Virus record (IMG/VR): IMGVR_UViG_3300027861_000016
Span: 1-64,000 of that record
Source of the DNA: a virus
Reading direction: 5' to 3' (one strand)
DNA length: 64,000 nucleotides
Below the pieces are notes generated by a model, which was not told the DNA's origin, searched no databases, and saw nothing but the letters and a program-made list of their open reading frames with translations. The position numbers were made by a program, and so were the translations under genes. Below, piece after piece: positions 61,262 to 61,382 of the stretch (position 1 is the stretch's first letter; each line of letters opens with the position of its first letter).

Positions 61262-61382
61262 AAAGGGATAGCTCAGTCTGGTAGAGCAAGGTATATTAGA
61301 CGACAAACGGTCACTAGATTTATACTTTAAAGATAAACTAAGTCGCTTACCAAGGTCGTAGGTTCAAATCCTACTCCCTTTA
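61262..61382 (+). tRNA. tRNA-like RNA with a 54-nt structured segment replacing the anticodon loop (isotype undetermined)
   Basis: Acceptor AAAGGGA/TCCCTTT; D-arm GCTC-AGTCTGGTA-GAGC; anticodon stem GGTA/TACC; variable loop AGGTC; T-arm GTAGG-TTCAAAT-CCTAC. Confidence 0.7.

What the first reader, a model, noticed from the sequence alone, without database searches (positions are those of the whole stretch)
61262..61382. tRNA with a 54-nt structured insert in place of the anticodon loop
Seen: acceptor, D, variable and T arms are canonical, but 61294-61347 replaces the 7-nt anticodon loop with its own stem-loop (CGAC/GTCG; TAG.TTTAT/ATAAACTA). It is too short for a group I intron, and bacteria lack the archaeal/eukaryal tRNA splicing endonuclease. 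Inference: either a processed intron-containing tRNA needing phage or host nuclease plus ligase, or a decoding-incompetent tRNA mimic or decoy, for example against anticodon nucleases or tRNA-sensing defences.
Basis: partly seen in the sequence, partly recalled or inferred. Interest (0 to 1): 0.75.

Follow-up and report, generated by a model that had tools for sequence, protein, structure and literature searches.

The report
Anticodon-less tRNA-shaped phage RNA
A marine crAss-like phage carries one perfectly formed tRNA gene whose anticodon loop is replaced by a 54-base helical arm, so it probably cannot read codons and more likely serves as a tRNA-shaped docking or decoy RNA of a barely described kind.

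Summary
Window 61262-61382 (+) is a full-length tRNA match (Rfam RF00005, 48.5 bits) with all four arms intact and a 53-54 nt insertion where the 7-nt anticodon loop should be. It is the only tRNA in this 95.9-kb crAss-like phage record.

It does not look like a removable intron. No single excision restores a canonical anticodon loop, because U33 is impossible in the standard register. By contrast, 40 of 77 other insert-bearing phage tRNA genes that I collected are perfectly restorable, against 0.7 expected by chance.

Its only specific relative is a chimeric tRNA in another crAss-like phage (L014):
- The tRNA bodies match at 52 of 54 bases, and the two differences form one compensatory acceptor pair.
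- L014 carries its insert at position 28/29, keeps a Lys(UUU) anticodon arm, and lies 100 nt from a Ro60-like (TROVE) gene.

The window RNA has no anticodon arm. Its phage record has no detectable Ro60-like gene, RNA ligase or splicing enzyme.

My best reading (about 50%) is a non-decoding, tRNA-scaffolded RNA, possibly Y-RNA-like. The rivals are an intron removed by an unknown route and a dead relic.

No expression data exist. This scan has found similar chimeras before on other DNA.

The parts
61262..61293 (+). tRNA 5' part: acceptor 5' strand (61262-61268), U8 A9, D arm (61271-61287), A26, and the 5' strand of the helix in the anticodon-stem position (61289-61293, AGGUA)
   Evidence: Rfam alignment and the sequence. 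The first 26 nt match the L014 chimera at 25 of 26 positions.
61294..61347 (+). 54-nt insert that takes the place of the 7-nt anticodon loop (about 32% G+C, like the phage genome)
   Evidence: No copy elsewhere in the genome (blastn-short). No match to the class A or class B module HMMs.
61301..61345 (+). Inner helix CGAC (61301-61304) / GUCG (61342-61345) that closes the distal part of the insert
   Evidence: Sequence and MFE fold. A helix of this size abutting the UUAC tail arises in 48% of shuffles.
61315..61340 (+). Apical hairpin: 8 pairs with A61318 bulged, and a 9-nt loop ACUUUAAAG (61324-61332) that contains an anticodon-loop-like CUUUAAA
   Evidence: Sequence. The significance is unresolved (notebook).
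61348..61382 (+). tRNA 3' part: 3' strand of the anticodon-position helix (61348-61352, UACCA), variable loop AGGUC, T arm (61358-61374), acceptor 3' strand (61375-61381) and discriminator A
   Evidence: The 24-nt T-arm and acceptor string is found in only one other viral contig (L014) and in none of 185,579 prokaryote genomes.

Best explanation
The locus encodes a tRNA-shaped RNA that does not decode. The body is a complete tRNA: acceptor, D and T arms and all tertiary-contact bases. The anticodon loop is replaced by an irregular arm of about 17 pairs, stacked on a 4-pair helix in the anticodon-stem position.

Inferred mechanism:
1. The RNA is transcribed within the plus-strand early/middle operon. 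It starts 6 nt after the stop codon of the upstream ORF and ends 17 nt before the next start codon.
2. Host RNase P and the 3' tRNA-trimming enzymes cut it out.
3. The host CCA-adding enzyme completes the 3' end.
4. The product is a stable RNA of about 121-124 nt that has no usable anticodon.

By descent it is the anticodon-less counterpart of a chimeric tRNA-Lys in another crAss-like phage, which lies beside a Ro60-like gene. Its likely job is therefore to present the inserted arm, on a tRNA scaffold, to a protein. That protein could be a Ro60/Rsr-type ring protein, from the host or from the unsequenced part of the phage, or some tRNA-binding factor.

What is shown: the anatomy, the impossibility of a canonical loop, the homology to L014, and the link between this class of chimera and Ro60-like genes elsewhere. 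What is inferred: expression, processing, the partner and the function.
For: (1) The tRNA body is complete and canonical.

(2) No single excision gives U33 and R37 on the standard stem. 31% of shuffled inserts between the same flanks would give one, and 40 of 77 other insert-bearing phage tRNA genes restore a perfect 5-pair stem with a canonical loop, against 0.7 expected.

(3) L014 is a specific homologue. The body matches at 52 of 54 bases, and the two differences form a compensatory acceptor pair, A3-U70 versus G3-C70. The shared 24-mer is unique to L014 among 2.9 million viral contigs and absent from 185,579 genomes. L014's phage is also crAss-like, although its major capsid protein is only 26% identical to the window's. 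The bodies are conserved while the inserts have diverged, which argues for selection on the body.

(4) L014 lies about 100 nt downstream of a TROVE+vWA gene. TROVE genes occur in 10 of 11 contigs that carry this class of module.

(5) Among class A chimeras, non-restorable versions keep the Ro60-like partner gene in the locus about as often as restorable ones: 8 of 14 against 11 of 26. An anticodon is therefore dispensable for whatever links RNA and protein.

(6) The phage record has no RtcB, Rnl1-type or Rnl2-type ligase.

(7) Published precedent: YrlA Y RNAs mimic tRNA (PMC4201824), and a phage Ro60 binds phage-encoded Y-like RNAs and host PNPase (PMC12135203).
Against: - The phage record has no TROVE, DUF2828 or DUF7788 gene. 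This was checked by six-frame Pfam searches and by HMMs I built from the phage partner proteins. The record may be incomplete (CheckV estimate 65%).
- The insert lacks the GC hairpin and the CGAA/CGAU motif of the TROVE-linked class. It has only near-matches, GACGAC and GUCGCU.
- The class HMMs do not hit it, though leave-one-out recovers only 8 of 14 true members.
- Its fold is no better than that of shuffles.
- Its resemblance to the L014 insert is limited to the junctions and is not statistically secure.
- There is no close relative that would show conservation of the insert, and no RNA data.
Confidence: 0.5

Rival explanations
1. It is an intron-bearing tRNA. Part of the insert is cut out and the halves are rejoined by host enzymes, for example a nuclease plus host RtcB, to give a decoding tRNA with an unusual anticodon arm. 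One such reading uses a stem register shifted by one pair, closed by a U.U, with loop AUUAGAC and anticodon UAG. In that reading the intron 61301-61345 sits at the classical 37/38 position.
For: - Most insert-bearing phage tRNA genes do restore perfect anticodon arms, so removal or tolerance of such inserts seems common.
- Lak megaphage tRNAs carry 'enigmatic' introns (PMC6784885).
- In the shifted register, the intron ends pair with each other exactly (CGAC/GUCG).
- An RtcB match was found in the Bacteroides control genome.
- A stand-alone PNKP-type 3'-phosphatase gene lies 1.7 kb upstream.
Against: - The standard register cannot give U33.
- The shifted solution needs two bases between the D stem and the anticodon stem, a 6-nt variable loop and a U.U closing pair. 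53% of shuffled inserts give a solution under such relaxed rules.
- A UAG anticodon would imply Leu, but the RNA has a short variable loop.
- The phage has no ligase or nuclease for the job.
- There is no BHB motif and no ribozyme match.
Confidence: 0.2
2. It is a dead gene. It would be a former module-bearing tRNA, like L014's tRNA-Lys, that lost its anticodon arm by deletion and now drifts without function.
For: - Compared with L014, about 17 nt holding the anticodon stem-loop are missing.
- The phage record has no partner gene.
- The insert is an orphan with no detectable conservation.
- The KVP40 analogue is annotated as a pseudo-tRNA.
Against: - Every stem of the body is intact: 7/7 acceptor pairs, 4/4 D, 5/5 T.
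- All tertiary-contact bases are kept, in a genome of 31.5% G+C.
- The body is 96% identical to L014's although the phages are very distant, and the one change is compensatory.
- The gene is tightly packed between ORFs.
- The KVP40 'pseudo-tRNA' is itself conserved across 49 phage records.
Confidence: 0.2
3. It is an RNA-processing signal. The tRNA shape would serve only to recruit RNase P and RNase Z, so that the polycistronic early transcript is cut between the upstream and downstream ORFs. The excised RNA itself would have no further role.
For: - It sits 6 nt after a stop codon and 17 nt before the next start codon, inside a same-strand gene block.
- No promoter or terminator of its own was detected.
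Against: - A processing signal needs neither a full D arm nor a 54-nt arm.
- The homologue L014 carries a real anticodon arm and a protein partner.
Confidence: 0.1

Closest known systems
YrlA-type bacterial and phage Y RNAs bound by Ro60/Rsr (Chen et al. 2014, PMC4201824; Thermus phage phiLo Ro60 with Yrl1/Yrl2, PMC12135203)
   Same: Both are non-coding RNAs that combine a tRNA-like domain (D arm, T arm and acceptor-like stem; YrlA is a substrate of tRNA enzymes) with a stem-bulge-stem arm in place of a working anticodon. The window's one homologue lies beside a Ro60-like gene.
   Different: In YrlA the 5' and 3' ends lie at the far end of the protein-binding stem. Here they lie at the acceptor stem, which is a circular permutation of that layout. 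There is no Rfam YrlA match. There is no exact GNCGAA motif. No Ro60 gene was found in this phage record.
'Enigmatic' introns of Lak megaphage tRNAs (Devoto et al. 2019, PMC6784885)
   Same: Both are short, non-ribozyme inserts in tRNA genes of phages that infect Bacteroidota, with no known way of removal.
   Different: The Lak inserts are reported as introns that leave an assignable anticodon. Here no canonical anticodon loop can be restored.
Module-bearing phage tRNAs next to Ro60-like genes: class B (UUAYC tail, TROVE partner) and class A (ACAGCAA motif, DUF2828/DUF7788 partner), as defined here and noted earlier in this scan
   Same: The tRNA body is homologous to that of a class B member (L014). 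The insert begins at about position 28/29 with GUAUAUUA (L014 has GUAUAAUA) and ends with a stem followed by UUACC (L014 has UUACU).
   Different: The window has no anticodon arm after the insert, no inner GC hairpin or CGAW motif, no partner gene in the record and no HMM hit.
Archaeal and eukaryal bulge-helix-bulge tRNA introns, and bacterial group I tRNA introns
   Same: All are insertions in or near the anticodon loop of a tRNA gene.
   Different: The window insert has no BHB motif and a bacterial-virus context. At 54 nt it is far below group I size, and no Rfam intron model matches it.
The engineered 'tRNA scaffold' for recombinant RNA expression (Ponchon and Dardel 2007; cited from my own knowledge, not checked here)
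   Same: Both place a foreign structured RNA where the anticodon loop would be, so that the chimera is processed and stabilised like a tRNA.
   Different: That construct is man-made. Here the design is natural, and the role of the cargo is unknown.

Membership tests
Decoding tRNA (Rfam RF00005) | Cloverleaf with acceptor, D and T arms and the conserved tertiary-contact bases | tested here: met
   48.5 bits, model positions 1-71. All stems pair.
Decoding tRNA (Rfam RF00005) | 7-nt anticodon loop with U33 and a purine at position 37 on a 5-pair stem, as encoded or after one excision | tested here: not met
   Exhaustive excision search found no solution in the standard geometry. Only a shifted register works, and 53% of shuffles also pass under those relaxed rules.
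Archaeal/eukaryal BHB intron | Two 3-nt bulges separated by a 4-pair helix at the splice sites | tested here: not met
   Checked by hand on the sequence. The CGAC/GUCG helix has no flanking 3-nt bulges in the register that a tRNA requires.
Group I (or other ribozyme) intron | A catalytic core recognisable by a covariance model, and a length of about 200 nt or more | tested here: not met
   The insert is 54 nt. No Rfam family other than tRNA matches at E <= 1 or E <= 5.
Restorable insert-bearing phage tRNAs (Lak-type 'introns') | One excision restores a perfect anticodon arm | tested here: not met
   40 of 77 other cases pass (0.7 expected by chance). The window fails.
Class B, TROVE-linked module | 3' tail (G/C)UUAYY directly after a basal stem, with a 5' linker that pairs with the tail | tested here: inconclusive
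   CUUACC follows GUCG, and GGUA pairs with UACC. However, 48% of shuffles give such a stem, and the tail doubles as the anticodon-stem strand.
Class B, TROVE-linked module | Inner GC hairpin followed by a YCGAW(N)GG motif; match to the family profile | tested here: not met
   Both features are absent from the sequence. nhmmer gives no hit at E <= 100, but leave-one-out sensitivity is only 8 of 14.
Class B, TROVE-linked module | A Ro60-like (TROVE+vWA) gene in the same phage, usually within 2 kb | tested here: not met
   No TROVE match at E <= 1 in the 95.9-kb record, and none with my own HMM. The record may be incomplete.
Class A, DUF2828-linked module | Hairpin followed by ACAGCAA; a DUF2828+DUF7788 gene nearby | tested here: not met
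   The nearest string is ACGACAA, and it lies before the hairpin rather than after it. No HMM hit. No DUF2828 or DUF7788 gene.
YrlA / Y RNA (RF02553) | Match to the covariance model; GNCGAA(N)G motif; a neighbouring Ro60 gene | tested here: not met
   No Rfam hit. Only the near-motifs GACGAC and GUCGCU are present. No Ro60 gene.
YrlA / Y RNA (RF02553) | Physical binding to Ro60/Rsr | not testable with these tools
   Needs EMSA or co-purification.

The most novel reading that the evidence does not exclude
crAss-like phages make a natural 'tRNA-scaffold' RNA. It would be a circularly permuted analogue of the Y RNA YrlA, evolved from a module-bearing tRNA-Lys by loss of the anticodon arm. It would be processed like a tRNA but work by docking a Ro60-type or tRNA-binding host protein, for example to redirect an exoribonuclease or to blunt a tRNA-targeting defence.
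Probability: 0.3. Interest if true: 0.75.

Novelty: new variant of a known kind. Interest (0 to 1): 0.6.

Why it matters
Phage tRNA genes are usually read as codon-supply or anti-defence spares, and tRNA finders either skip genes like this one or mislabel them.

This case shows a complete tRNA body kept under apparent selection without any usable anticodon. It also ties that body by descent to a tRNA chimera that sits beside a Ro60-like gene.

Together with the roughly 80 other chimeras collected here, it points to a widespread and almost undescribed set of tRNA-embedded phage RNAs. Their partner proteins (TROVE or DUF2828/vWA rings) can now be named and tested. The chimeras offer a route into what Ro60 and Y-RNA systems do during infection. 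They also bear on the open question of whether bacteria or their viruses can splice tRNAs without ribozymes.

Tried and rejected
- **Close relatives of the gene.** I searched viral and metagenome contigs with its own anticodon-stem context, with and without an insert. There were no matches.
- **Phage GenBank records.** blastn found only generic tRNA-arm hits.
- **Neighbouring 393-aa protein.** It has no close homologues. Its AlphaFold model is beta-rich with low confidence (pLDDT 61), so it is not a HEAT ring.
- **T-arm pattern scan.** It was swamped by tRNA-fMet attachment sites.
- **Apparent 5' similarity to L174.** It did not recur: the seven other hits are not tRNA genes and look like coding sequence.
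- **Smith-Waterman comparison of the insert with all collected inserts.** Scores were no better than for shuffles.
- **A motif apparently shared with the small RNA at 52.6 kb.** It failed on exact definition.
- **RNAalifold on the class B alignment.** It gave no consensus structure because the stems were out of register, so I built no covariance model.
- **Sigma-70 promoter and terminator scan.** Uninformative.
- **Sequencing runs.** No RNA holder is listed; only one seawater DNA run holds the stretch, and it is probably the source of the record. Laying its contigs showed the same sequence and no insert-less form.
- **336-aa ORF beside a MoxR-like ATPase.** It matches Ro60-like proteins only through a vWA MIDAS motif.

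Full report
**What is there.** The window is the first 64 kb of a 95,930-bp IMG/VR virus record. It is a divergent crAss-like phage:
- Its major head protein (38837-40306, minus strand) matches the Crassvirales head proteins at about 33% identity.
- It has the matching portal protein and the giant virion proteins.
- The only sequencing run that holds it is a seawater metagenome.

Rfam's tRNA model matches 61262-61382 (+) over its whole length (48.5 bits) with one 53-nt insertion at the anticodon loop. This is the only tRNA match in the whole record. Read directly, the acceptor stem has 7 of 7 pairs, the D stem 4 of 4 and the T stem 5 of 5. The helix in the anticodon-stem position has 4 pairs plus an A.A. 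U8, A14, G18G19, G53, the TTC of the T loop, A58 and C61 are all present.

Taken alone, however, the arm folds no better than shuffled sequence (z = -0.9).

**Is it an intron?** I scanned viral contigs for tRNA D arms and T arms spaced too far apart. This gave about 130 hits, of which 77 are unique insert-bearing tRNA-like genes with a sound acceptor stem.
- For 40 of the 77, one excision restores a perfect 5-pair anticodon stem and a 7-nt loop with U33 and R37. Shuffles give 0.7. Inserts in phage tRNA genes are therefore common, and most leave the tRNA recoverable.
- The window's gene is not one of these. On its own stem every split of the loop puts A or G at position 33, although 31% of shuffled inserts between the same flanks would pass.
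- A solution exists only if the stem is shifted by one pair: U.U closing pair, two bases at position 26, a 6-nt variable loop. Under those rules 53% of shuffles pass too.
- I found no bulge-helix-bulge motif, and no Rfam intron or ribozyme matches.
- The phage record has no RtcB, Rnl1-type or Rnl2-type ligase. It has only a stand-alone PNKP-type phosphatase domain (59069-59512) and an ATP-dependent DNA ligase.

**The one relative.** Among the first hits, L014 has the same D arm, the same T arm and almost the same acceptor stem.
- Aligned, the two tRNA bodies differ at two positions out of 54. Those two positions pair with each other (A3-U70 in the window, G3-C70 in L014).
- The shared 24-nt T-arm and acceptor string occurs in no other of 2.9 million viral contigs and in none of 185,579 prokaryote genomes.
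- The 5' half occurs only in a few unrelated bacterial tRNA-Met and tRNA-Thr genes.
- L014 comes from a complete 95-kb crAss-like phage whose head protein is only 26% identical to the window's.

Two distant phages thus keep nearly the same tRNA body while the inserts have diverged almost completely. Only the junctions are alike: GUAUAAUA versus GUAUAUUA at the start, and a stem followed by UUACU versus UUACC at the end. That pattern argues for selection on the body in both lineages and against recent decay.

In L014 the insert follows position 28. After it comes an intact arm, CGAGG-CUUUUAA-CCUUG, which is Lys(UUU). In the window, the variable loop follows the UUACC tail directly, so the anticodon arm is simply absent.

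**Context from the wider set.** The collected chimeras fall into two recurrent classes and a mixed remainder.
- *Class B:* a linker, a long stem with an inner GNRA hairpin and a YCGAW motif, and a GUUAYC tail. Its contigs carry a TROVE+vWA (Ro60-like) gene in 10 of 11 cases examined, usually within 2 kb. L014 lies about 100 nt downstream of such a gene.
- *Class A:* a hairpin followed by ACAGCAA. It goes with a different ring-type protein, DUF2828+DUF7788/vWA, and not with TROVE.
- In class A, chimeras that cannot be restored to a tRNA keep the partner gene in the locus about as often as restorable ones: 8 of 14 against 11 of 26.
- The CGAA-type motif in an internal loop is the feature used to recognise bacterial and phage Y RNAs (PMC4201824; PMC12135203).

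These chimeras therefore look like tRNA-embedded relatives of Y RNAs. Whether the restorable ones are also spliced is open. The only paper I found on short inserts in phage tRNA genes calls them 'enigmatic introns' and gives no mechanism (PMC6784885). Earlier agents of this scan reached similar readings on other DNA. I re-derived the associations here from my own loci.

**Where the window RNA fits.** It is tied to class B by descent of its tRNA body and by its junctions, but it fails the other class features:
- It has no inner GC hairpin and no CGAW motif.
- Neither class profile hits it. The profile recovers only 8 of 14 true class B members in leave-one-out tests and misses L014 itself.
- The record has no TROVE, DUF2828 or DUF7788 gene by Pfam six-frame search or by HMMs built from the phage partner proteins.
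- The adjacent 393-aa protein is beta-rich and poorly modelled, so it is not a HEAT ring.
- A 336-aa ORF next to a MoxR-like ATPase shares only a vWA MIDAS motif with the Ro60-like proteins.

The record may be incomplete (CheckV estimate 65%, linear). A Ro60 match was found in the Bacteroides control genome, so a partner from the host or from unsequenced DNA cannot be excluded.

**Verdict.**
- About 0.5: a functional, non-decoding tRNA-scaffold RNA. It would be released from the operon transcript by the tRNA-processing enzymes and would present its arm to a protein.
- About 0.2: an intron removed by an unknown, host-dependent route, giving an odd tRNA.
- About 0.2: a relic of an L014-like tRNA-Lys that lost its anticodon arm.
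- About 0.1: a bare processing signal.

No RNA data are available, so expression and ends are inferred. One unexplained detail remains. The apical loop contains CUUUAAA, which has the form of an anticodon loop and differs by one base from L014's Lys loop CUUUUAA. It sits about 17 pairs too far from the elbow to decode.

Noticed in passing
window 52470-52660 (-): A small RNA unit running from a promoter to a terminator, with no ORF. It begins with an acceptor-stem and T-arm-like element (GGAAGU ... GAAAG-UUCGACU-CUUUC-ACUUCC) and ends in an 11-pair terminator. It folds far better than shuffles (-47.2 kcal/mol, z = -3.3). This would be a second tRNA-related non-coding RNA in the same phage.
   Followed up: partly
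window 59750-60430: An ORF-free stretch of about 680 bp between the PNKP-type phosphatase gene and the small ORFs upstream of the tRNA-like gene. Other first-stage notes flag it as a large structured RNA. No Rfam match.
   Followed up: no
window 59069-59512 (+): A stand-alone HAD-type 3'-phosphatase domain of polynucleotide kinase-phosphatase (PF25109, E = 3e-32). No kinase domain and no RNA ligase occur anywhere in the record.
   Followed up: partly
L008 (Vibrio phage KVP40, record 180959-181099) and 48 related records: The KVP40 gene annotated 'tRNA-Pseudo-4' is a tRNA body with a 47-nt insert next to an Asn-like loop. It is conserved at 60-100% identity in 49 Vibrio and Cronobacter phage records, some of which annotate it as tRNA-Asn. 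No TROVE gene was found in KVP40.
   Followed up: partly
loci L140-L251 (viral contigs): Two recurrent insert classes in phage tRNA genes have different partner proteins. ACAGCAA-type inserts go with DUF2828+DUF7788/vWA proteins, and GUUAYC-tail inserts go with TROVE+vWA proteins. Several loci (L005, L007, L171, L190, L218) hold two or more such chimeras in tandem.
   Followed up: partly
genome 67334-69392 (L017:3334-5392): A MoxR-like AAA+ ATPase gene followed by a 336-aa protein with a vWA MIDAS motif (DISGS). This looks like a MoxR-vWA pair in a crAss-like phage.
   Followed up: no
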